DNA of 64,000 nucleotides from a virus, in IMG/VR virus record IMGVR_UViG_3300008952_000005, positions 32,001 through 96,000 of that record; one strand, written 5' to 3'. Positions 22,948-57,217 of this stretch are shown in pieces; positions within the stretch are counted from its first letter, which is position 1; the number at the start of each line of letters is the position of its first letter. The translations under genes and the position numbers were made by a program. The notes beneath the pieces are model-generated. The model was given only the letters and a program-made list of their open reading frames with translations, was not told where the DNA came from and made no database searches.

Positions 22948-23430
22948 TTATCTTAACCTTTGTAATTCTACCGACATTGATTGTGGACCTGGCACTCCAA
23001 TAATATAAAAATGTATTTCAACTACTAATCTATTACTATCAACATCATCACCAAATGGACTGTTAGTTACAAAATTATTATCATTAATAACGATAGATGT
23101 TATACTTATTCTTGGTTCGTGATTTTGTAAAACTTCTTCTATTTTTCTTTTTAAAAATATAGAAGTCATTGGTGTATAATTTTCAAAAAGAAGTTGTCTT
23201 ACACCACACCCCAATTCTGGATGAAAAGGTCTCTCATAGTAATTTGTTAATATCAAATTTCTTACAGACCTCTTTATAGCATTAGCATCCTCAAGTGTAC
23301 CAATATCGTTGGTAATTGGATGCCTAGTAAAATTTAAATCTATATCTTTAAACTTCCTAGATTGCCTCGTACTAGAGCTTTTTACCTCACTAGTATAATC
23401 TGATTTAAATTTCTGATTTTGTTGTCCCAT
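22948..23430 (-). CDS. gp25: Baseplate wedge subunit gp25
   Basis: FKDIDLNF..HP, AIKRSVRNLILT..YERPF.P..G, HEPR. Confidence 0.9.
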   Translation of the reverse strand: MGQQNQKFKSDYTSEVKSSSTRQSRKFKDIDLNFTRHPITNDIGTLEDANAIKRSVRNLILTNYYERPFHPELGCGVRQLLFENYTPMTSIFLKRKIEEVLQNHEPRISITSIVINDNNFVTNSPFGDDVDSNRLVVEIHFYIIGVPGPQSMSVELQRLR

Positions 23431-23757: not shown

Positions 23758-23862
23758 TTATGCTAATATCCAAATGGCTACTATAACTATTAATACCCAA
23801 TTAGGTACTGAACTTTTAGTAAACCATTCTTTTACTTTTTTCGTGTCTATTGGTTCTATCAT
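23758..23862 (-). CDS. Small single-TM protein (34 aa, not in ORF track)
   Basis: MIEPIDTKKVKEWFTKSSVPNWVLIVIVAIWILA*; ATGA overlap with the rplL stop. Confidence 0.6.
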   Translation of the reverse strand: MIEPIDTKKVKEWFTKSSVPNWVLIVIVAIWILA

Positions 23863-24221
23863 TTTACCTCTATTTTTCCTCCAGCAGACTCAATGTCTGC
23901 TTTTATTTTATCTACTTCTTCTTTTTGTTGGTCTTCTGCAATTACAGAAGGGACTCCTTCAACAAAATTCTTTGCTTCTAGTAATCCCATATCTTTAAAT
24001 GCTCTAATTGCTTTAATTACACTAATTTTTTTATCAGGATCAAAACCTGTTAGTGTAATTTTGAATAAAGACTCTTCTTTTTCTTCTACTACTGCCGCTG
24101 GTGTACTCATTATAGCATTTAAATCTAAACCCCAAGTCTTTTCAAGTTTTTTTGCTAATTCACCCGCTTCAATAACTGTTAATTTTCCCAATTGTTCTAC
24201 TAACGTATCAATATTACTCAT
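23859..24221 (-). CDS. rplL: 50S ribosomal protein bL12 (L7/L12)
   Basis: NTD LVEQLGKLTVIEAGELAKKLEKTWG; CTD F.ITL.....KKISVIKAIR...MGLLEAKNFVEG.P.....KEE...IK..IESAGGKIEVK. Confidence 0.93.
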   Translation of the reverse strand: MSNIDTLVEQLGKLTVIEAGELAKKLEKTWGLDLNAIMSTPAAVVEEKEESLFKITLTGFDPDKKISVIKAIRAFKDMGLLEAKNFVEGVPSVIAEDQQKEEVDKIKADIESAGGKIEVK

Positions 24222-24798: not shown

Positions 24799-25005
24799 AT
24801 GAAAAAAATACTTGAATATTTAACAATTATTTTATCAATAGGAGGAACTTTCTGTCTAATCGGCGCTGTCGGCGCAATTGACGGCGGTTATAACGGAATT
24901 CCTATGAACGATAATTGGTTTTTATGTGGTACTTTGTCATTGTTAGGAATTGCTATGTTTATTTTAGCATTATACTCGCAAACGTTGTATTCTGAACAAG
25001 ACTAA
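24799..25005 (+). CDS. Small two-TM membrane protein
   Basis: Two hydrophobic segments, own promoter and strong SD. Confidence 0.75.
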   Translation: MKKILEYLTIILSIGGTFCLIGAVGAIDGGYNGIPMNDNWFLCGTLSLLGIAMFILALYSQTLYSEQD

Positions 25006-25880
25006 TTACTAGATTTTAATAAATAGCCTATCTCTAATCCTAGCTCATCTGCTTTATCAATAGTTTTAGATGATTTTGAATAGAATCTATCTTTACCATC
25101 TGGTGAAAATAGTTCTGCTTCAAGATTTATCGTATTACCATCAATATTTGCAAATACACCTACCGCTGTATCACAATCTCCTTCTATAATCTTAAGCACG
25201 TTCCTTTCTGCCTTAACACAATTGTGTGTTTCTGTATGATTAACACTTTCTAATAACTCAATTATCTCTTCATCATTATCTCTACATTGTAAAGCAATAA
25301 CTCCTTGACCAGCACAAGGTATCATTTCACTAGTAGAAAACGTTTGAGAAATCTTGTTCTCTAAACCTAATGATTGAATTCCTGCATAAGACAAAATTAT
25401 AGCGTCAAATAAACCATCATTTAGTTTTTTAATTCGTGTATCAACGTTTCCTCTTATTAACTTATAATTAAGGTCTTCTCTTATTCTTTTTAATTGGAAT
25501 TCTCTTCTAAATGAAGAAGTACCTATAATTGAATTTGGAGCTAAATCTTTTAAGTGTTTATTATCTCTACTAATTAAAATTTCTCTTGGATCGTTTCTTT
25601 CTAAAAAACAGTTTGTTAATAAACCTTCTGTTTCTTCCGTTGGCATATCTTTTAATGCGTGGACGGCTATATCTATTTTTTTACTTAATAATTCTTCTTC
25701 AATCTTTTTAGAAAATAGTCCTTTACCTCCAGCTTCAGAAAGTCTTACATCTTTAAGTTGGTCGCCCTTGGTTTCAATTTCTTTGATAATTACTTCTTTG
25801 TTTAATACTGCTTTAGCTTTTTCAGCATAGATACGTGCTAATTTACTTCCTCTTGATCCTATTATAAGTGATGTCGGCAT
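25002..25880 (-). CDS. hemC: Porphobilinogen deaminase (hydroxymethylbilane synthase)
   Basis: IGSRGSKLA, GGKGLF.K.IE..LL...IDIAVHALKD, GTSS.RR, RGNVDTR..KL, PCAGQG, cofactor Cys in AERNVLKIIEGDC. Confidence 0.96.
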   Translation of the reverse strand: MPTSLIIGSRGSKLARIYAEKAKAVLNKEVIIKEIETKGDQLKDVRLSEAGGKGLFSKKIEEELLSKKIDIAVHALKDMPTEETEGLLTNCFLERNDPREILISRDNKHLKDLAPNSIIGTSSFRREFQLKRIREDLNYKLIRGNVDTRIKKLNDGLFDAIILSYAGIQSLGLENKISQTFSTSEMIPCAGQGVIALQCRDNDEEIIELLESVNHTETHNCVKAERNVLKIIEGDCDTAVGVFANIDGNTINLEAELFSPDGKDRFYSKSSKTIDKADELGLEIGYLLKSSN

Positions 25881-26656
25881 AATCGTCTTGCACCATAAGT
25901 TATCATATAACAAGCACCTGCTCTTTTGAATATGTGATATGTTTCTTCTAAACTACCAGGCGCACCAATACCTAACCATTCTCCAGATGTTTGATATACA
26001 CCTACAGGTTTCTTTGTAATATTTCTTATTGGTTCAATTAAGTCTAAACTTGTCATACCAGGTTTTACCATTAATTCATCTGCGCCATCATCTGAATATT
26101 TTATAGACCTTGCAATTGCCTTATGTCTATCGCTAACATCTAATTGATAGGGTCTATGAATACCTTTTGGTATCTTCATTACATCACGCCAACCTCTATA
26201 AAATGTTGAACGAAATTTTGTACTATAACTCATTACAGGTATCTGACCATTATTAATTGATTTAATATTCTTAACTGTATTGTCTTGACAATCACTTGGC
26301 GCTACTGTAGCACCTGACGCTGTGTAAATCTCTACGGCTGATTGTAGTAATAGGTCATCTGTTTTTTCTTGGTCTCCTGTTACACAACAATGTCCGTCTT
26401 GCGTGTAAGAACATAAACATACATCAACATTTAATTTTATAGGTAACGTTGAAAGACTAGCGGCAGTTAAACAAACTTCCTCAAAGTTAAATAACTTTAA
26501 TTCAGGTATGTAAAATAAAAGAAATTCTTTTACTCCTAAATCAATATCTTTCTTAACACGTTCTTTAACTTCTTTTGCATTAAAGATTTTATTATCTTCT
26601 CCTAGTCCAGTTTCTCTTGTAGTATTACTGGCGAATATCGGTTGTATTAATCTCAT
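25862..26656 (-). CDS. hemB: Porphobilinogen synthase (ALA dehydratase), compact Zn-type
   Basis: DVCLCSYTQDGHC Zn triad, APSDCQD, MSYSTKF (Lys1), YQLD, DGADELMVKPG (Lys2), YQTSGE, FKRAGA. Confidence 0.93.
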   Translation of the reverse strand: MRLIQPIFASNTTRETGLGEDNKIFNAKEVKERVKKDIDLGVKEFLLFYIPELKLFNFEEVCLTAASLSTLPIKLNVDVCLCSYTQDGHCCVTGDQEKTDDLLLQSAVEIYTASGATVAPSDCQDNTVKNIKSINNGQIPVMSYSTKFRSTFYRGWRDVMKIPKGIHRPYQLDVSDRHKAIARSIKYSDDGADELMVKPGMTSLDLIEPIRNITKKPVGVYQTSGEWLGIGAPGSLEETYHIFKRAGACYMITYGARRLCRHHL

Positions 26657-26660
26657 TATA

Positions 26661-27440
26661 TTATTCTTCCCATATCGCACCTGGTGGCATAGACATTAAT
26701 ATTGCTTCAGGATTTCCTCCACTTCTCAATCCAAACTTTGTTCCTCTATCATACATTAAATTAAATTCAACGTATCGTCCACGTTTTAATAGTTGTGTGT
26801 ATTTATCTTGCTTCGTATATTTTAAATTCATCTTTGGTGTTATAATCTCTTTAAGTAATTGACAAAAGGTTCTACCAACATCTTTAACAAATTCAAAATG
26901 TTTCTTACCATATTTGTAATCAAAGAAGATACCACCTACACCTCTTGTTTCTTCTCTATGGGGTAAATAAAAATACTCATCACACCATTTCTTATATGTT
27001 TTGTAATAAAGTTTATTATGTCTATCACATAATTGTTTTAATCTGTAATGCCATAAATTTCTTTCTACATCATCTTTCAAACACGGTGTCATATCTGTAC
27101 CACCACCAAACCAACTTTTTTCTGTTTCAATATATCTTGTATTAAAATGTATTGCAGGTACTTTAGGATTCTTTGGATGTAATACTACTGATACTCCTGT
27201 TGACCAGAAGTTTCTACTATGTTTTGTACCAGGGATTTCTTTTGCAAAGTCTTTTGGAAACTTACCTACAACATTACTAAAGGTGACACCTCCCTTTTCA
27301 ATCACATCACCTTTAATTGTTTTAAAGTTACCAAATTTCCATTTGTTATCTTTAAATTTTGCTTTAGTTTCTAACTCTTCAATAGTCTGACAAATTAACT
27401 TTTGCAACTCCATAAACCATTGCAACGCTTCTTGTTTCAT
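26661..27440 (-). CDS. hemF: Oxygen-dependent coproporphyrinogen III oxidase
   Basis: EKGGV.FS.V.G, F.STGVSVVLHP.NP.VP.IHFNTRY, WFGGGTDMTP, RGVGGIFFD, RGRYVEFNL.YDRGT.FGL. Confidence 0.96.
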   Translation of the reverse strand: MKQEALQWFMELQKLICQTIEELETKAKFKDNKWKFGNFKTIKGDVIEKGGVTFSNVVGKFPKDFAKEIPGTKHSRNFWSTGVSVVLHPKNPKVPAIHFNTRYIETEKSWFGGGTDMTPCLKDDVERNLWHYRLKQLCDRHNKLYYKTYKKWCDEYFYLPHREETRGVGGIFFDYKYGKKHFEFVKDVGRTFCQLLKEIITPKMNLKYTKQDKYTQLLKRGRYVEFNLMYDRGTKFGLRSGGNPEAILMSMPPGAIWEE

Positions 27441-28222
27441 TACTTTATTTCAGCGGCTATTCTTGAAGCAAAGCTACTTTCTTCTTTTTTTAATTTTACT
27501 TCTTCAAGTGTCTTTGATTCAGCTTTAGGATGATTAAAGTATAAATTGCCTGATACACTTATTCTTGTTCCTTTTGTTTTAAAAGGAATTACTTGATGTC
27601 TTAATTGTGCTGGAAATATCCACATACCACCCATTTGAGGATTATAACCATATGAGTGTTCTGCCCAAGTTGGATTAGCTTGTTCACCATAATGAAACGT
27701 AACACCACCTGGACCAAAACTCTTGCCTTTATAATTTTTTCTTTCTTCTGTTAAGTCTGGCGTATTTAAAAAGATAACCCAAGATAACATTCCATCGTGT
27801 GTATGTTCAGGATTAGCTTCGTTCTCTTTCATATAATTAATCCATAAGTTCATAAGTGTAAATTTTGTTGAAAATCGGTCTTCTGTAAAAGGTTGTCCAA
27901 TATAGTTCGCTGACGCTTTAACGTAATCATTAATGTATCGTTGAAACTCTTTTATAAACCATTTTTTATCTTCTAAACCAAAACCTCGTTGGTCTTCTAT
28001 TATCCCTGCTAAGTTTTCATTGACTGAACCTGGTATTAGTTTTTGTCCTCTTTCAGTAAGTCCTTCTAATAACTCTTGATGAACATAATACATTGCCACA
28101 TAAGGACCAAAATTTAAATTACCACCCCTTTGTTCGTCTTCAACAGGTTGCATAAACTCTTTATGTTTACGGTGATTTAAAAAATGTGGATTAAATTTAT
28201 CGTTATTATCTGTCATATCCAA
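27440..28222 (-). CDS. 2OG-Fe(II) oxygenase-like protein
   Basis: LWINY....E.NPEHTHDG.LSWV, IFPAQLRH.V.PF, RISVSGN. Confidence 0.8.
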   Translation of the reverse strand: MDMTDNNDKFNPHFLNHRKHKEFMQPVEDEQRGGNLNFGPYVAMYYVHQELLEGLTERGQKLIPGSVNENLAGIIEDQRGFGLEDKKWFIKEFQRYINDYVKASANYIGQPFTEDRFSTKFTLMNLWINYMKENEANPEHTHDGMLSWVIFLNTPDLTEERKNYKGKSFGPGGVTFHYGEQANPTWAEHSYGYNPQMGGMWIFPAQLRHQVIPFKTKGTRISVSGNLYFNHPKAESKTLEEVKLKKEESSFASRIAAEIK

Positions 28223-28400: not shown

Positions 28401-28883
28401 TTATTCTTTCCTTATTTTATCCATTTTTTGTAAAACTGCTTCTTGTTGTCTTTCATTATAAAACCTTTTATGTTCTTCTTCTGTAATCGTTGCTTTTCGT
28501 CCATCACGTACTATTATCTTTAGTTCTGTATCTGTTAAATATATTACTGGTGAGATATAATATATGCCTTGATAACTATAAGGTTTGTTAACATCTGGAT
28601 CCATAACGTAATCATATTTAGTTTCTTTTTTTGGTATCGTATCATAATGCACTCCTTTATCTATGTTCCAACAATGATGGATGATTGGTGTTGCATTGAT
28701 ACTTTCATTATAATTATCAACCAACCAACCTGTAATAAACTTCGTACCAAAGTTTTTTGCTTCTACGACAGACATAGTAATACACTCACGTCTTTGATAA
28801 TTACTATTCGGTCTATGTTCAACCTTTTCTATGTATTGTGCGTTTGGTCTATACTTTAGAAATTGTTGTGTTGCGTTTTTCAT
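28401..28883 (-). CDS. Hypothetical protein
   Basis: 160-aa ORF in the operon. Confidence 0.65.
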   Translation of the reverse strand: MKNATQQFLKYRPNAQYIEKVEHRPNSNYQRRECITMSVVEAKNFGTKFITGWLVDNYNESINATPIIHHCWNIDKGVHYDTIPKKETKYDYVMDPDVNKPYSYQGIYYISPVIYLTDTELKIIVRDGRKATITEEEHKRFYNERQQEAVLQKMDKIRKE

Positions 28884-29031
28884 ACTGTAGTTTGTCTTTC
28901 AATGCGAGTTTCATTTTCTTTAAGTCTTTCAATTCTCGCCAAGAAGTAAATGACCTATCGTTCTTTCTTACTGCCTCCTGTAGATTTACTTTTCTTTTTA
29001 AGTCTTTGTGATTTGCTTTTAATTCCGCCAT
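28849..29031 (-). CDS. Small coiled-coil protein (DUF465-like)
   Basis: LK..H..L..KV...E.......EL..LKKMKLALKD. Confidence 0.5.
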   Translation of the reverse strand: MAELKANHKDLKRKVNLQEAVRKNDRSFTSWRELKDLKKMKLALKDKLQYEKRNTTISKV

Positions 29032-29392
29032 ATATTGTCCTTTCGTCTATATCGTGTATTCGTGGGTTATATCCTTTCGGCCAATTCAGATTGAGTGTTA
29101 AAGTAGAATCATCTTGACATATTATTCTTATTTGGTGTCCTGTGGGTGTTGAGTTATCCCAATAACGTTCATAGTTATTTAAGTTAATGACTTGATGTTT
29201 TTTCTTCTTTGATTTTTTCTTGACTGAATCAAACATACCCGAGTTGGGTGTGTTGTTTGCGATATCATCTAAAAATTTGGAATCTTTAGGACTTGCGTTA
29301 AAGTCATACGTAGCAGGATAGATACCTGCGTCTTGTTCTTGCGCTATTTTTTGTGCAAAGGTCTCCATAATATTAACATTACTTTTATTCAT
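28955..29392 (-). CDS. Hypothetical protein
   Basis: 145-aa ORF with AGGA SD, directly after a late promoter. Confidence 0.6.
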   Translation of the reverse strand: MNKSNVNIMETFAQKIAQEQDAGIYPATYDFNASPKDSKFLDDIANNTPNSGMFDSVKKKSKKKKHQVINLNNYERYWDNSTPTGHQIRIICQDDSTLTLNLNWPKGYNPRIHDIDERTIYGGIKSKSQRLKKKSKSTGGSKKER

Positions 29393-29411: not shown

Positions 29412-29419
29412 TATTTATA
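29412..29419 (-). promoter_or_regulatory. T4-type late promoter TATAAATA
   Basis: Exact consensus heading the run that ends in hemF-hemB-hemC. Confidence 0.7.
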
Positions 29420-30455: not shown

Positions 30456-31553
30456 TTATTGACCTGGCATACTGCCTGGGTTTAAGTCAATTGTAGACCC
30501 TTTGTGTACGACAGCGCCTGTGGTACTTGATGTCTTCGTGCCTTCAATGATTTCTGATTTATAGCCTTCTATGACAGAAGAGTAGTTGCCTTTTACTTTC
30601 AAATTATAATCACCTCCACTATTGACATTGATGTTGCCTTCTACGGTGACCAAATTGATATTGCCTTTGTCCACTTGTATATTCACATTGGCATTGGGAC
30701 CTATTTGTATATCGTAATTGTTATTGGCTTGTTGGCTTTTGTTAATAAAAATCTTGTGGCGACCATCTATAGTAATGTCACTTTTCCCGCCGATACTGTA
30801 ACGACTGTCACCTGTTGTAATACTGTAAATATCTTTTTTGTTAAGGTAAGTAATGTTGCCTTCAGGATCAATTTCATAAGAGGTGCCTTTTCTATGCGCC
30901 TGATAAATTCTTTCGGTGCCAACTGAATCGTCTATTTCAAAAATATGCCCTTGTTCACTTTCATAAACTTTGTTATGAGGATAAACAGCGTTATAGGTAA
31001 TTTCATTTTCATCCCAGGTGTCACCATCACTTGCAGGCATATCGGAATAATTGCTTGCCTTCGTTGCGTTAAAGTCTGCCGTCGGTACGCCTTTAGTCCG
31101 CAATTCTTTACGCAATGTTAAACTTTCGTGAGGAGTACTAGTACTGTTCACCGCCAGTCTATTGACATCACTCTCACCTATATGTTTAGGATAAATGTCA
31201 TTCGGGTCGGCAAAACCTTTTGTAGAGTCGCCTTTCGCAATGGGATTGCCTGGCATTGAACCAATTACACACGGCTCTTGACAACTTGCGCCATCTCTAA
31301 AATATCCAAAGACCCAACTGCCTTCAACCAAAAAGGTCGGCGAGTGTCCAAGACCGCTTATGCCTGGTGATGTAACAGGCAGTATGACTTGCGCCCAAGG
31401 TAAATCTTCTGTAGACAAAACTTCTTTATCATCTGTATGTATGCCAAGACAACGCACTCGCACTCGGCCAACCTGCATTGGGTCGTTTCTATCTTCAACG
31501 ACACCGTGAAAGTAAATGAAGTTCTGAAATCCTAAAATATTTGTCGTGGCCAT
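30456..31553 (-). CDS. gp5: Baseplate hub/spike protein gp5 (OB-fold + beta-helix, no lysozyme domain)
   Basis: F.GVVEDRNDP...GRVRVRCLGIH.....LPWA, WVFG.F.DG...Q.P, YP.N.V.ES..GH.FE.DD. Confidence 0.9.
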   Translation of the reverse strand: MATTNILGFQNFIYFHGVVEDRNDPMQVGRVRVRCLGIHTDDKEVLSTEDLPWAQVILPVTSPGISGLGHSPTFLVEGSWVFGYFRDGASCQEPCVIGSMPGNPIAKGDSTKGFADPNDIYPKHIGESDVNRLAVNSTSTPHESLTLRKELRTKGVPTADFNATKASNYSDMPASDGDTWDENEITYNAVYPHNKVYESEQGHIFEIDDSVGTERIYQAHRKGTSYEIDPEGNITYLNKKDIYSITTGDSRYSIGGKSDITIDGRHKIFINKSQQANNNYDIQIGPNANVNIQVDKGNINLVTVEGNINVNSGGDYNLKVKGNYSSVIEGYKSEIIEGTKTSSTTGAVVHKGSTIDLNPGSMPGQ

Positions 31554-38786: not shown

Positions 38787-39821
38787 CTATCTTATTGGTG
38801 GTACGTACATTACGCCACCGTTTTTCCAAAGATTATTTAATCCTCGTTCTAATGCAAGTGGAGTATTAGGTCCTACATTTCTCTCAAATGATTCCCCATA
38901 GTTTCCTACTTGTTTGATAATATTATAACCAAATTTCATACCAAGTCCTAACATAGGACCGATATAACCTTCAACACCTAATATTCTTTTAACTTCTTTA
39001 TTCTTTGAAGTTAACATTAAATCTACATTGTACATTGTAATACCTGCCTCTTCAGCATTTATCATAATGAAATGTGTCCATCTTATTACATCTTCCCACT
39101 CTTGGTCGCCTTGTCTTACAAGTGGACCTAATGGTTCTTTAGATATAATTTCAGGTAATACTAACCATTTACTAGGGTCTTCTGCACCTGCTCTAGCACT
39201 TGCTAAACCAGAAGCGTCTGTTGTGAATACATCACAATCACCATTAAATAGTTTTGCCTTTGCGTCTTTATTACCTTCAACATATACTGGCACATATGCC
39301 ATATTTTGTTCTGCAAAGTAATCATTTAAATTTAATTCACTTGTAGTTTCTTTTGTAATACATACATACGCACCATCTAATTCTGTAGCGGTTTTAATAT
39401 CTAAATCAGTAGGTATCAAGAATCCTTGTCCATCATAATAGTTAACACCTGCAAATTCAAACATCAAGTTAACATCACGACTAATTGTCCACGTTGTATT
39501 TCTTGCAAGTACATCAATATTGCCAGACGCCAATGTTGGAAATCTTTGACTAGCATTTAATCCTACAAATTCTACTTTACTTGCGTCACCAAATATACCA
39601 GCGGCAACTGCCTTACAGAAATCTACATCTAAACCACTCCAGTTTCCTGCGTCATCTTGAGCAGAAAATCCTGGTAGACCTGCATTAACTCCACAAATAA
39701 CATAACCTCTTTCTTGTACGGTTTTTAAGAGACCGACTTCTTGTTCTATTTTAATACTCTTTGTTGTATTACAACCTACTAAAAATAGAGCAACTAATAA
39801 ACTCATTAATATTTTTTTCAT
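38787..39821 (-). CDS. aapJ: General L-amino-acid ABC transporter substrate-binding lipoprotein (AapJ/BztA family)
   Basis: Lipobox LVGC; L..V.ERG..ICGVN.GLPGFS, G.DVDFC.AVAA.IFGD, RF..L.SG.IDVL.RNTTWT.SRD, ISKEPLGP.VRQGD, GNYGE.FERN.G. Confidence 0.92.
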   Translation of the reverse strand: MKKILMSLLVALFLVGCNTTKSIKIEQEVGLLKTVQERGYVICGVNAGLPGFSAQDDAGNWSGLDVDFCKAVAAGIFGDASKVEFVGLNASQRFPTLASGNIDVLARNTTWTISRDVNLMFEFAGVNYYDGQGFLIPTDLDIKTATELDGAYVCITKETTSELNLNDYFAEQNMAYVPVYVEGNKDAKAKLFNGDCDVFTTDASGLASARAGAEDPSKWLVLPEIISKEPLGPLVRQGDQEWEDVIRWTHFIMINAEEAGITMYNVDLMLTSKNKEVKRILGVEGYIGPMLGLGMKFGYNIIKQVGNYGESFERNVGPNTPLALERGLNNLWKNGGVMYVPPIR

Positions 39822-56332: not shown

Positions 56333-57217
56333 CTATTTATATAACTTATCTACTTGTTCCGCTGTCAATCTTCTCCCTATACTCCAAAATAGCGTCTTTT
56401 CTTTTGTAGTATCTATATTCTCTCTCATCCATTTATGTGCTTTACCTTCATATATATCGTCAATAAAGCCATTACCAACATCTTCCCATATGGGTTTTGA
56501 ATATGGATATGGTGTTTTGTACATTTCATAATCTTGAAACTTCTTAAAACCTGATTCAAGATTACTAAATTGATTTAAATACTCATTAATCTTTTTACTA
56601 CGGTCAACAAAGGTGACCCCTATAATTCTTTTTACCTTTTTCTTAAACTTCTCTATACCTTTTACTATACCTGCAAACTGTATACCACTACCAACTGAAA
56701 TTACTATATTATCTAACTTGTCAGGTATGTTTTTAACTTGATTAGCAACACTATCAAATATTGATTCAGGATTCGTAGCAGCACTATTACCAAACTTGAT
56801 TAACATATAACCTTTTTTAGATATTACTTTCTTTTTTAATCCACTATCTATTGCAACTGTATATCCGTGACCTGCAACGTTTTCAATATCAGCACCATAA
56901 TGTCTTGATAATCTTATCATATGGTGGGTGTCTATTGTTTTAGGTGTTGTACCACCTACACCTATGACGCATTTAAAACCAAAGTCTTTAGCAACTGCCG
57001 CTATGATAGGTGCTTGTGGACTATTAACAGATGAACCTGTAACTACTCCACCATTATATTTGTTTTTAATTTCATCTTTTAATTCTCTAAACAAACAAAT
57101 TGCCTGTCTTGTTTTTCCTCCATTAACATTATCTCTACCATAGGGAGCATAATAATCATCCCTTTTGTAATAAATGTTATTGTGAATTTCTACTGGAGTT
57201 AAATCAGTTGTTTTCAT
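56333..57217 (-). CDS. PLP-dependent enzyme, fold II (ACC deaminase/D-cysteine desulfhydrase-like)
   Basis: YKRDD....NGGKTR, S..SPQ, VISVGSG...AGI..G, D.IYEGK. Confidence 0.75.
   Translation of the reverse strand: MKTTDLTPVEIHNNIYYKRDDYYAPYGRDNVNGGKTRQAICLFRELKDEIKNKYNGGVVTGSSVNSPQAPIIAAVAKDFGFKCVIGVGGTTPKTIDTHHMIRLSRHYGADIENVAGHGYTVAIDSGLKKKVISKKGYMLIKFGNSAATNPESIFDSVANQVKNIPDKLDNIVISVGSGIQFAGIVKGIEKFKKKVKRIIGVTFVDRSKKINEYLNQFSNLESGFKKFQDYEMYKTPYPYSKPIWEDVGNGFIDDIYEGKAHKWMRENIDTTKEKTLFWSIGRRLTAEQVDKLYK

What the first reader, a model, noticed from the sequence alone, without database searches (positions are those of the whole stretch)
25002..27440. Phage-encoded tetrapyrrole/heme biosynthesis cluster hemF-hemB-hemC
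Seen: three contiguous genes with intact catalytic residues (HemB Zn triad and both Lys; HemC HALKD and cofactor Cys; HemF RGRYVEFNL..DRGT). Established: HemB converts ALA to PBG, HemC converts PBG to hydroxymethylbilane, and HemF converts coproporphyrinogen III to protoporphyrinogen IX. HemD and HemE are needed in between, and neither they nor ALA synthase is recognisable in this window. Without HemD, HMB cyclises to uroporphyrinogen I. I do not recall a multi-gene heme pathway cluster in a T4-like phage; novelty needs a search. Inference: the phage boosts heme/cytochrome supply, or makes a porphyrin by-product, during infection.
Basis: partly seen in the sequence, partly recalled or inferred. 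Interest (0 to 1): 0.88.

Follow-up and report, generated by a model that had tools for sequence, protein, structure and literature searches.

The report
Heme-pathway gene island in SAR11 myophage
A complete 177-kb virus of the ocean bacterium SAR11 really does carry three intact heme-pathway genes (hemF, hemB, hemC) in one operon, part of a swappable cargo island; two of the genes were noted once before in a related virus, and the unusually short viral HemB appears to be unreported.

Summary
Observation confirmed. On the minus strand, hemF (26661-27440), hemB (25862-26656) and hemC (25002-25880) follow a 2OG-Fe(II) oxygenase as a tightly coupled operon, with catalytic residues intact and dN/dS of 0.13-0.41.

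The window lies in a complete, terminally repeated 177,460-bp pelagimyophage related to Mosig and HTVC008M. The operon sits between baseplate genes gp5 and gp25. At least ten independent IMG/VR contigs share this synteny, so it is not a chimera.

- **Same genome, outside the window:** ALA synthase, heme oxygenase and a bilin reductase. No hemD, hemE or hemH was found; SAR11 genomes have hemD and hemE.
- **Mosaic origin:** HemF and HemC nest within different SAR11 lineages. HemB does not. It is a Cys-rich (Zn-type) enzyme lacking the whole N-terminal arm, while SAR11 HemB is Asp-rich.
- **Modular island:** hemB is the constant core (31 viral loci). hemF, hemC, hemE, a U32-like protein "X" and DUF454 swap around it. 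Another phage lineage has hemF-hemB-hemO.
- **Precedent:** Zaragoza-Solas 2020 mentions hemF and hemC in PMP-MAVG-4 in one sentence. Wegner 2024 describes viral alaS/hemO/pcyX. Neither mentions hemB.

Verdict: a real auxiliary metabolic island, partly known. Moderate interest.

The parts
30456..31553 (-). gp5-like baseplate hub (OB domain); upstream boundary of the cargo island
   Evidence: PF06714 E 2e-28. The same flank is found in IMG/VR relatives and in Mosig.
29412..29419 (-). TATAAATA, a T4-type late-promoter-like motif 20 nt upstream of the first ORF of the co-directional run that ends with hemC
   Evidence: The motif count in the window is not above chance. The position before ORF starts is suggestive only, so this is inference.
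28955..29392 (-). ORF of 145 aa, unknown function, co-directional upstream of the operon
   Evidence: No Pfam or PHROG family.
28401..28883 (-). ORF of 160 aa, unknown function, co-directional upstream of the operon
   Evidence: No Pfam or PHROG family.
27440..28222 (-). 2OG-Fe(II) oxygenase at the head of the operon; its end abuts the hemF start
   Evidence: PF13759 E 4e-15; phrog_81 E 4e-26. Present in nearly all island variants. A 2OG-Fe(II) oxygenase also lies in Mosig's gp5-gp25 interval, which has no hem genes, so it is probably not heme-specific.
26661..27440 (-). hemF, oxygen-dependent coproporphyrinogen III oxidase, 259 aa
   Evidence: The tree places it inside a Pelagibacteraceae-only clade. 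dN/dS 0.13-0.27.
25862..26656 (-). hemB, porphobilinogen synthase, 264 aa from the ATG at 26656; Cys-rich Zn-type site, no N-terminal arm
   Evidence: dN/dS 0.22-0.41. 31 viral loci carry it. Only 12 clusters at E<=1e-30 among 1.84 billion representatives.
25002..25880 (-). hemC, hydroxymethylbilane synthase, 292 aa from the ATG at 25880; overlaps the hemB stop by 19 nt
   Evidence: Up to 74% identical to chromosomal Pelagibacter HemC. Tree. dN/dS 0.13-0.16.
24799..25005 (+). convergent small hydrophobic ORF of 68 aa with an AAGGAG ribosome-binding site; marks the 3' end of the operon
   Evidence: sequence read directly.
23859..24221 (-). ribosomal protein bL12 homologue; conserved downstream neighbour of the island
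   Evidence: PF00542 and PF16320. Conserved position in the relatives.
22948..23430 (-). gp25 baseplate wedge; downstream boundary of the island
   Evidence: PF04965 E 6e-13. Synteny.

Best explanation
This is a genuine virus-encoded auxiliary metabolic operon (2OG oxygenase, hemF, hemB, hemC). It sits in the hypervariable gp5-gp25 cargo island of a complete pelagimyophage that most likely infects SAR11.

During infection the phage would supply its own enzymes for these steps:
- ALA to porphobilinogen (HemB)
- porphobilinogen to hydroxymethylbilane (HemC)
- coproporphyrinogen III to protoporphyrinogen IX (HemF)

It also carries an ALA synthase elsewhere in the genome. It would rely on host HemD, HemE, protoporphyrinogen oxidase and ferrochelatase for the remaining steps.

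The net effect is higher or sustained tetrapyrrole flux in the infected cell. That flux would serve heme cofactor supply, or feed the phage's own heme oxygenase and bilin reductase branch, or both.

The phage HemB is a minimal, armless, Zn-type enzyme unlike the host's Asp-rich enzyme. It may therefore escape host-type regulation.

Shown here: gene identity, intact active-site residues, purifying selection, viral context, mosaic origin and modularity. Inferred: enzymatic activity, direction of flux, end use and timing of expression.
For: - **Family matches and catalytic residues:**
- **Complete viral genome:** terminally repeated record of 177,460 bp. Its gp6 is 71.5% identical to that of Pelagibacter phage Mosig.
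- **Independent assemblies:** the same gp5 to L12-gp25 synteny occurs in many IMG/VR contigs from different samples. One of them is collinear at 95% nucleotide identity.
- **Composition:** uniform GC and strand bias across the region.
- **Selection:** dN/dS 0.13-0.41.
- **Rest of the pathway in the same genome:** ALA synthase, TIGR01821 566 bits against a cut-off of 338; heme oxygenase; bilin reductase.
- **Host can fill the gaps:** SAR11 genomes carry hemD and hemE.
- **Host-derived genes:** HemF and HemC nest within Pelagibacteraceae.
- **Link to heme breakdown:** a hemF-hemB-hemO operon in a different phage lineage puts biosynthesis and heme oxygenase in one transcription unit.
- **Experimental precedent for a neighbouring step:** a viral AlaS complements an E. 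coli ALA auxotroph (PMC11480375).
Against: - No enzyme assay or expression data exist for these genes.
- HemB scores below the NCBIfam equivalog cut-off (144 against 297). It lacks the N-terminal arm that cellular enzymes use for octamer assembly (the role of the arm is from general knowledge), so its activity level is uncertain.
- hemD, hemE, hemH and a protoporphyrinogen oxidase are not phage-encoded here, so the phage-coded steps are not consecutive.
- Making heme and degrading it in the same cell is only coherent if a bilin, iron release or turnover is the goal, and that goal is unknown.
Confidence: 0.72

Rival explanations
1. The pathway's real end product is a bilin rather than heme cofactors. 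Phage AlaS, HemB, HemC and HemF push carbon into heme only so that phage HemO and PcyX can convert it to biliverdin and a phycobilin-type pigment. The target of that pigment in SAR11 is unknown. This is a sharper version of the main reading, not a contradiction of it.
For: All six genes lie in one complete genome. A hemF-hemB-hemO operon exists in another phage lineage. A further armless-hemB contig has an Aminotran_1_2 gene about 6 kb away, possibly alaS. Wegner et al. 2024 found alaS with hemO and pcyX as cassettes (PMC11480375).
Against: - Here the hem operon is about 47 kb from hemO-pcyX, not linked to it.
- By published report rather than any check of mine, Mosig carries hemO and pcyX-like genes (PMC11480375). 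My searches found none of the three hem genes in it, so the modules occur independently.
- No bilin-binding partner is known in SAR11.
- Most related contigs are fragments, so I could not measure co-occurrence.
Confidence: 0.3
2. The genes are neutral or decaying hitch-hikers picked up from hosts in a recombination hot spot, with no role in infection.
For: The gp5-gp25 interval is hypervariable and holds unrelated cargo in Mosig: pstS, lpxH and tRNAs. Gene content varies among close relatives, including a clean 813-bp indel. HemB is shortened and diverged.
Against: - dN/dS is well below 1 for all three genes, even at 67-69% amino-acid identity.
- Every catalytic residue checked is kept.
- The armless hemB is kept in 31 viral loci spanning 68-98% identity.
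- Tight translational coupling is preserved.
Confidence: 0.07
3. The enzymes make a different product. Candidates are accumulated porphobilinogen, hydroxymethylbilane or uroporphyrinogen I, or free porphyrins acting as a toxin, photosensitiser or signal. Alternatively HemB has a non-catalytic role.
For: The phage lacks hemD and hemE. Over-supply of HemB and HemC ahead of host HemD could spill hydroxymethylbilane into the type I isomer (established chemistry).
Against: - The host hemD sits directly beside hemC in SAR11.
- HemF acts only on the type III branch, so its retention argues for the productive pathway.
- Sister islands carry hemE.
- The related deep-living PMP-MAVG-4 recruits mostly below 200 m (PMC7029224), which would leave little light for a photosensitiser. 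I did not establish that this genome belongs to that ecotype.
Confidence: 0.08
4. Assembly chimera or host contamination: a piece of bacterial DNA joined to a phage contig.
For: HemF and HemC are 64-74% identical to SAR11 genes. Several GenBank 'phage' records with hem genes are plainly mislabelled bacterial sequence.
Against: - Baseplate genes lie on both sides.
- The same junctions recur in many independent contigs from different samples.
- Gene order is unlike any cellular hem locus seen.
- HemB is unlike SAR11 HemB.
- Composition is uniform.
Confidence: 0.02

Closest known systems
Pelagimyophage PMP-MAVG-4, the 'deep ecotype' of Zaragoza-Solas et al. 2020, mSystems (PMC7029224)
   Same: A myophage of the HTVC008M group reported to carry coproporphyrinogen oxidase, porphobilinogen deaminase and GMP reductase. 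The present genome has all three; the IMPDH/GMP reductase family gene was found. bL12 is reported for some genomes of the same group.
   Different: The paper gives one sentence. It says nothing about hemB, operon structure, ALA synthase linkage, gene origin or island variants. I could not compare the sequences directly, so identity with that lineage is inferred from the shared gene list.
Viral alaS, hemO and pcyA/pcyX cassettes (Wegner et al. 2024, Nat Commun, PMC11480375)
   Same: Pelagimyophage-like contigs with ALA synthase plus heme oxygenase and a bilin reductase. The present genome has the 'broken cassette' form: hemO and the reductase adjacent, alaS about 4 kb away. The viral AlaS was shown to be active.
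   Different: That work does not mention hemB, hemC or hemF in its text or its supplements. The operon studied here covers later steps and lies about 47 kb from the cassette.
Cyanophage bilin genes ho1, pebS and pcyA (general knowledge, summarised in PMC11480375)
   Same: Tetrapyrrole-related auxiliary metabolic genes in T4-like marine myophages.
   Different: Those act after heme and serve light harvesting in cyanobacteria. Here the genes are biosynthetic steps before heme, in a phage of a non-photosynthetic heterotroph.
Cellular hem operons, for example the HIMB59-like hemC(504 aa)-hemB-hemE-hemH-hemF-hemJ operon (L077)
   Same: Holds the closest cellular HemB found (42-46% identity, full length, Cys-rich site) and clusters hemC, hemB and hemF.
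   Different: The gene order differs, hemE, hemH and hemJ are included, and the HemB keeps a short N-terminal arm. The phage HemF and HemC derive from SAR11, not from this lineage.
Canonical porphobilinogen synthase (ALAD) of E. coli, human and Pseudomonas aeruginosa (PDB 1b4e, 1e51, 1b4k)
   Same: Both Schiff-base lysines, the Cys-rich Zn site as in the E. coli and human enzymes, and the conserved Arg, Tyr and Gln aligned to cellular enzymes (R157, Y170, Q171).
   Different: 264 aa instead of about 325. The whole N-terminal arm and several loops are absent. The likely host enzyme is of the Asp-rich Pseudomonas type.

Membership tests
Porphobilinogen synthase (HemB/ALAD; PF00490, NCBIfam NF006762) | Score above the curated family thresholds | tested here: inconclusive
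   The Pfam gathering score is passed easily (154.5 against 24.6 bits). The NCBIfam equivalog cut-off is not reached (143.9 against 297 bits).
Porphobilinogen synthase (HemB/ALAD) | Two active-site Schiff-base lysines and the substrate-binding Arg, Arg and Gln | tested here: met
   MSYSTKF and LMVKPG align to the lysine motifs of the mouse/human-type and E. coli enzymes. K147, K198, R157, Y170 and Q171 are invariant in the 17-sequence alignment. The substrate-binding role of the Arg and Gln residues is from general knowledge.
Porphobilinogen synthase, Zn-dependent subclass | Cys-rich metal motif D-x-C-x-C-x-Y-x3-G-H-C (general knowledge) | tested here: met
   DVCLCSYTQDGHC is present. SAR11 and SAR86 enzymes have DVALDPYT..GHDG or GQDG instead.
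Porphobilinogen synthase (HemB/ALAD) | N-terminal arm of about 25-30 residues used for octamer assembly (general knowledge) | tested here: not met
   All seven viral sequences start at the LIQPIF-type motif, i.e. at the point where the arm of cellular enzymes ends. I did not test the consequence for oligomer state or activity.
Hydroxymethylbilane synthase (HemC; TIGR00212) | Score above the equivalog cut-off; catalytic Asp, cofactor Cys, substrate-binding Arg residues | tested here: met
   318.5 against 164 bits. HALKDMP, EGDC, GSRGSKLA, SSFRR and IRGNVDTR align to solved enzymes.
Oxygen-dependent coproporphyrinogen oxidase (HemF; NF003727, PF01218) | Score above the equivalog cut-off; conserved His residues and the RGRYVEFNL..DRGTKFG block; full length for its clade | tested here: met
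   331.3 against 297 bits. Invariant H88, H98, H131 and H161 and the motif block are present. The C-terminus ends after PPxxxW in nearly all of the alphaproteobacterial HemF sequences examined.
Phage auxiliary metabolic gene | Metabolic gene with cellular homologues, lying inside a viral genome with viral hallmark genes on both sides, recurring in independent viral assemblies | tested here: met
   gp5 and gp25/gp6 flank the operon. The genome is complete with terminal repeats. Recurrence is shown, and host-nested phylogeny.
Phage auxiliary metabolic gene | Expressed during infection and alters host metabolism | not testable with these tools
There is no culture.
Viral alaS/hemO/pcyX cassette (Wegner et al. 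2024) | ALA synthase plus heme oxygenase plus ferredoxin-dependent bilin reductase in one phage genome | tested here: met
   TIGR01821 566 bits, PF01126 75 bits and PF05996 55.6 bits, all in G000 between about 4.6 and 10.4 kb. This is outside the window.

The most novel reading that the evidence does not exclude
The armless, Zn-type porphobilinogen synthase is a virus-associated enzyme family. It forms the constant core of a modular viral tetrapyrrole toolkit (alaS, hemB, hemC, hemE or hemF, hemO, pcyX) that marine phages shuffle by cassette exchange. In this genome six of about ten steps from glycine and succinyl-CoA to a phycobilin are phage-coded, so the purpose of the toolkit would be to make a bilin in a non-photosynthetic host. 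The co-travelling U32-like Fe-S-type TIM-barrel protein X and DUF454 would then be new tetrapyrrole-linked functions.
Probability: 0.3. Interest if true: 0.75.

Novelty: new member of a known kind. Interest (0 to 1): 0.5.

Why it matters
SAR11 is among the most abundant organisms in the sea. Tetrapyrrole genes in its phages are an active question, and the purpose of viral alaS, hemO and pcyX in non-phototrophs is still called enigmatic in the 2024 paper.

This genome shows that the viral investment extends to HemB, HemC and HemF. In sister genomes it extends to HemE. That gives a much fuller phage-coded route and concrete genes to test.

The naturally armless, Zn-type HemB is a ready-made probe for how the N-terminal arm governs assembly and regulation in porphobilinogen synthases. 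Its contrast with the host's Asp-rich enzyme suggests that the phage bypasses host control or host metal dependence.

The cassette-level variation (hemF, X, DUF454, hemE and hemC around hemB) offers natural knock-in and knock-out comparisons.

Tried and rejected
- **DNA search of GenBank phages:** blastn with the cluster found nothing.
- **Protein search of GenBank phages:** tblastn hits for HemF, HemB and HemC came only from records that are evidently bacterial sequence filed as phage, for example Acinetobacter phage MD-2021a scaffolds, Salmonella enterica records and small unannotated 'phage' fragments. I rejected these as precedent.
- **PHROGs:** no family for HemF, HemB, HemC, AlaS, bL12 or X.
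- **HemF looks truncated against Pfam:** rejected. Nearly all of the alphaproteobacterial HemF sequences examined end at the same point.
- **SAG loci L020 and L021 as phage contigs inside SAR11 cells:** rejected. They are chromosomal, with the order petA, petB, spoU, hemF, greA. The same holds for L159 and L160, where hemD follows hemC.
- **Protein X as a hidden HemD or HemE:**
  - no Pfam family and no PDB sequence match
  - the first fold, from a 6-sequence alignment, was useless (pLDDT 34)
  - a 64-sequence alignment gave a confident TIM barrel (pLDDT 86)
  - its best structural match is a U32 peptidase, only weakly (E 4e-5, TM 0.45-0.50)
  - so there is no support for HemD or HemE, and X is absent from this genome anyway
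- **Late promoter:** the TATAAATA count is not above chance. Only the position of individual sites is suggestive.
- **Unpublished genomes:** G045 and G245 were flagged as unpublished. They are only counted in the 301-genome tally, and no specific claim rests on them.
Full report
**What is there**

ORF listing and Pfam/NCBIfam scans show a co-directional minus-strand run:
- a 2OG-Fe(II) oxygenase, 27440-28222
- hemF, 26661-27440
- hemB
- hemC

HemF and HemC pass NCBI's equivalog cut-offs (331 against 297 bits, and 318 against 164 bits). HemB passes the Pfam threshold (154 bits) but not the NCBIfam equivalog cut-off (144 against 297 bits).

Reading the junctions gives the true starts:
- hemB begins at the ATG at 26656, 4 nt after the hemF stop.
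- hemC begins at the ATG at 25880 and overlaps the hemB stop by 19 nt.
- A small convergent ORF (24799-25005, plus strand) closes the unit.

A TATAAATA motif at 29412-29419 lies 20 nt before the first ORF of the run. The motif is not enriched in the window, so late transcription is only a suggestion.

**Active sites**

I compared each protein with solved structures.
- HemB keeps the Cys triad (DVCLCSYTQDGHC) and both Schiff-base lysines.
- HemC keeps the catalytic Asp, the cofactor Cys and the Arg clusters.
- HemF keeps the RGRYVEFNL..DRGTKFG block and four invariant His residues.

HemF ends two residues after PPGAIW. That looked like a truncation against Pfam. However, nearly all of the 70-odd alphaproteobacterial HemF sequences I extracted end at that point, so it is full length for its clade.

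Pairwise dN/dS against viral orthologues is 0.13-0.27 for hemF, 0.22-0.41 for hemB and 0.13-0.16 for hemC.

**The genome and whether the cluster is viral**

The window is bases 32001-96000 of a 177,460-bp IMG/VR record with direct terminal repeats, estimated complete. Its gp6 is 71.5% identical to that of Pelagibacter phage Mosig EXVC030M and 55.7% to HTVC008M.

Several lines show the operon belongs to the phage:
- It lies between gp5 (30456-31553) and bL12, gp25 and gp6.
- GC content and skew are uniform across it.
- IMG/VR holds 15 loci with a HemF relative, 31 with HemB and 11 with HemC.
- Many of these loci share the same gp5 to L12-gp25 frame.
- One is collinear with the window at 95% nucleotide identity.

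A chimera is therefore very unlikely.

**The rest of the pathway**

Family searches of the whole genome found no hemD, hemE or hemH. They did find, all outside the window:
- an ALA synthase at about 4.6-5.9 kb (TIGR01821, 566 bits)
- a heme oxygenase
- a ferredoxin-dependent bilin reductase

This is the 'broken cassette' described by Wegner et al. 2024 (PMC11480375).

SAR11 genomes carry hemD and hemE. In SAR11 hemD lies directly downstream of hemC. A SAR11 HemD query finds nothing in the phage. The host can thus supply the missing steps, which makes the uroporphyrinogen I idea unnecessary.

**Origins are mosaic**

- **HemF.** In an 85-row tree the window's protein sits inside a clade made only of Pelagibacteraceae and viral rows (SH-aLRT 98). 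Its nearest cellular relatives are two SAR11 single-cell genomes at 64-67% identity. Their loci are chromosomal.
- **HemC.** It is up to 74% identical to HemC of close relatives of Pelagibacter HIMB1611. It nests in that clade (97), which is a different SAR11 lineage from the HemF relatives.
- **HemB.** It is not SAR11-like. SAR11 enzymes (about 330-340 aa) match only its C-terminal two thirds at 36-38% identity. Only 7 of 301 sampled alphaproteobacterial genomes match along the full length, at 42-46%. One of them is the source of locus L077. L077's HemF groups with that of a contig named HIMB59, so I call the lineage HIMB59-like.

The alignment shows two further points:
- All viral HemB proteins begin at the LIQPIF-type motif, so they lack the entire N-terminal arm.
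- Viral and HIMB59-like enzymes have the Cys-rich metal site, whereas SAR11 and SAR86 have the Asp-rich motif.

Across 1.84 billion cluster representatives, only 12 match at E<=1e-30. The closest full-length ones are 267-284 aa.

**A modular island**

Comparing the loci shows hemB as the constant element, with these layouts:
- 2OG-hemF-hemB-hemC (this genome)
- 2OG-hemF-X-hemB-hemC
- 2OG-DUF454-hemE-hemB-hemC (hemE confirmed, 271 bits)
- 2OG-hemF-X-DUF454-hemB-AspH
- 2OG-X-hemB-AspH
- 2OG-hemB-AspH
- DUF454-2OG-hemB-AspH

Against its 95%-identical relative, the window lacks exactly 813 bp, which is gene X. In another variant, homology resumes exactly at the hemB start. This indicates cassette exchange at gene boundaries.

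In cultured Mosig the same interval holds pstS, lpxH, an Asp/Arg hydroxylase and tRNAs.

Other phage lineages carry related modules:
- hemE-hemF-hemC beside nrdA and nrdB
- hemF-hemE
- hemF-hemB-hemO on contigs that share a gp41-like helicase with this phage
- an armless hemB with an Aminotran_1_2 gene about 6 kb away

**Protein X**

X is 277 aa and has 236 homologues, all unnamed. With a 64-sequence alignment it folds confidently as a TIM barrel (pLDDT 86). Its best structural match is the U32 peptidase Mk0906, weakly, and a language-model search also hinted at PF01136. Four cysteines are invariant.

It may bind an Fe-S cluster as U32 enzymes do. That is inference, and X is not in this genome.

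**Literature**

- Zaragoza-Solas et al. 2020 state in one sentence that PMP-MAVG-4 uniquely carries GMP reductase, coproporphyrinogen oxidase, porphobilinogen deaminase and formate dehydrogenase. The present genome also has an IMPDH/GMP reductase family gene, so it probably belongs to that lineage.
- Wegner et al. 2024 do not mention hemB, hemC or hemF in the text or the supplements.
- Full-text searches for porphobilinogen synthase or ALA dehydratase as a phage auxiliary gene found nothing relevant.
- Earlier unchecked notes of this scan on the same genome list the same six genes. I had found them independently before reading those notes.

**Verdict**

The general interpretation is reasonable but incomplete, and the novelty is partial. 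hemF and hemC in this phage group were already noted, and alaS, hemO and pcyX are published.

New here are:
- the armless Zn-type viral HemB as the core of the island
- the operon and its cassette variants
- the mosaic origin of the genes
- the joint presence of six tetrapyrrole genes in one complete genome

Function remains inferred.

Noticed in passing
L003:3570-4403 (also L004, L006, L008, L125, L141): Gene X, a 277-aa protein of no known family, sits between hemF and hemB in close relatives. It is missing from this genome through a clean 813-bp indel. It is a confident TIM barrel with four invariant Cys and a weak structural likeness to U32 peptidases, and it has 236 unnamed homologues in marine metagenomes.
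   Followed up: partly
L124:3312-4711 and L142: A sister island variant replaces hemF with DUF454 (a YbaN-like membrane protein) plus hemE (URO-D, 271 bits), giving DUF454-hemE-hemB-hemC. DUF454 recurs in several island variants beside hemB.
   Followed up: partly
L192:4564-7372 and L193: A different marine phage lineage (GC 36%) carries OMP decarboxylase, hemF, an armless hemB and heme oxygenase as one co-directional block. This links heme synthesis genes directly to heme breakdown.
   Followed up: partly
L014:9024-11529; L012 and L013; L015:9974-11784: Other viral contigs carry hemE-hemF-hemC next to ribonucleotide reductase genes, or hemF-hemE next to a 2OG oxygenase with DnaK and EF-P nearby. 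Viral heme genes are therefore broader than one phage group.
   Followed up: partly
window 23859-24221 (-): A full-length ribosomal protein bL12 homologue lies just downstream of the island, conserved in the relatives. It was already reported for some group A pelagimyophages (PMC7029224).
   Followed up: partly
window 38787-39821 (-): A stand-alone family 3 solute-binding protein (SBP_bac_3, E 1e-13) with no transporter genes beside it.
   Followed up: no
window 56333-57217 (-): A PLP-dependent enzyme of the PALP family (E 8e-16) among small phage ORFs. Function not examined.
   Followed up: no
G000:C1:97718-98701 (just beyond the window end): An IMPDH/GMP reductase family gene (229 bits). It matches the GMP reductase listed for PMP-MAVG-4.
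   Followed up: no
L068:1042-6780 (SAR86 MAG): A gammaproteobacterial SAR86 contig has an ALA synthase-like gene (46% identical to the phage AlaS) beside a run of hemC, hemB and hemF. That is unexpected for a lineage expected to use the C5 route.
   Followed up: no
GenBank 'phage' records CAKLQH02, CAKLQF02, OR844993, OR851535, AFYI01000004 and others: Records filed as phages in the INPHARED set that carry hemB, hemC or hemF look like bacterial genome sequence. They would give false precedents in automated surveys of auxiliary metabolic genes.
   Followed up: no
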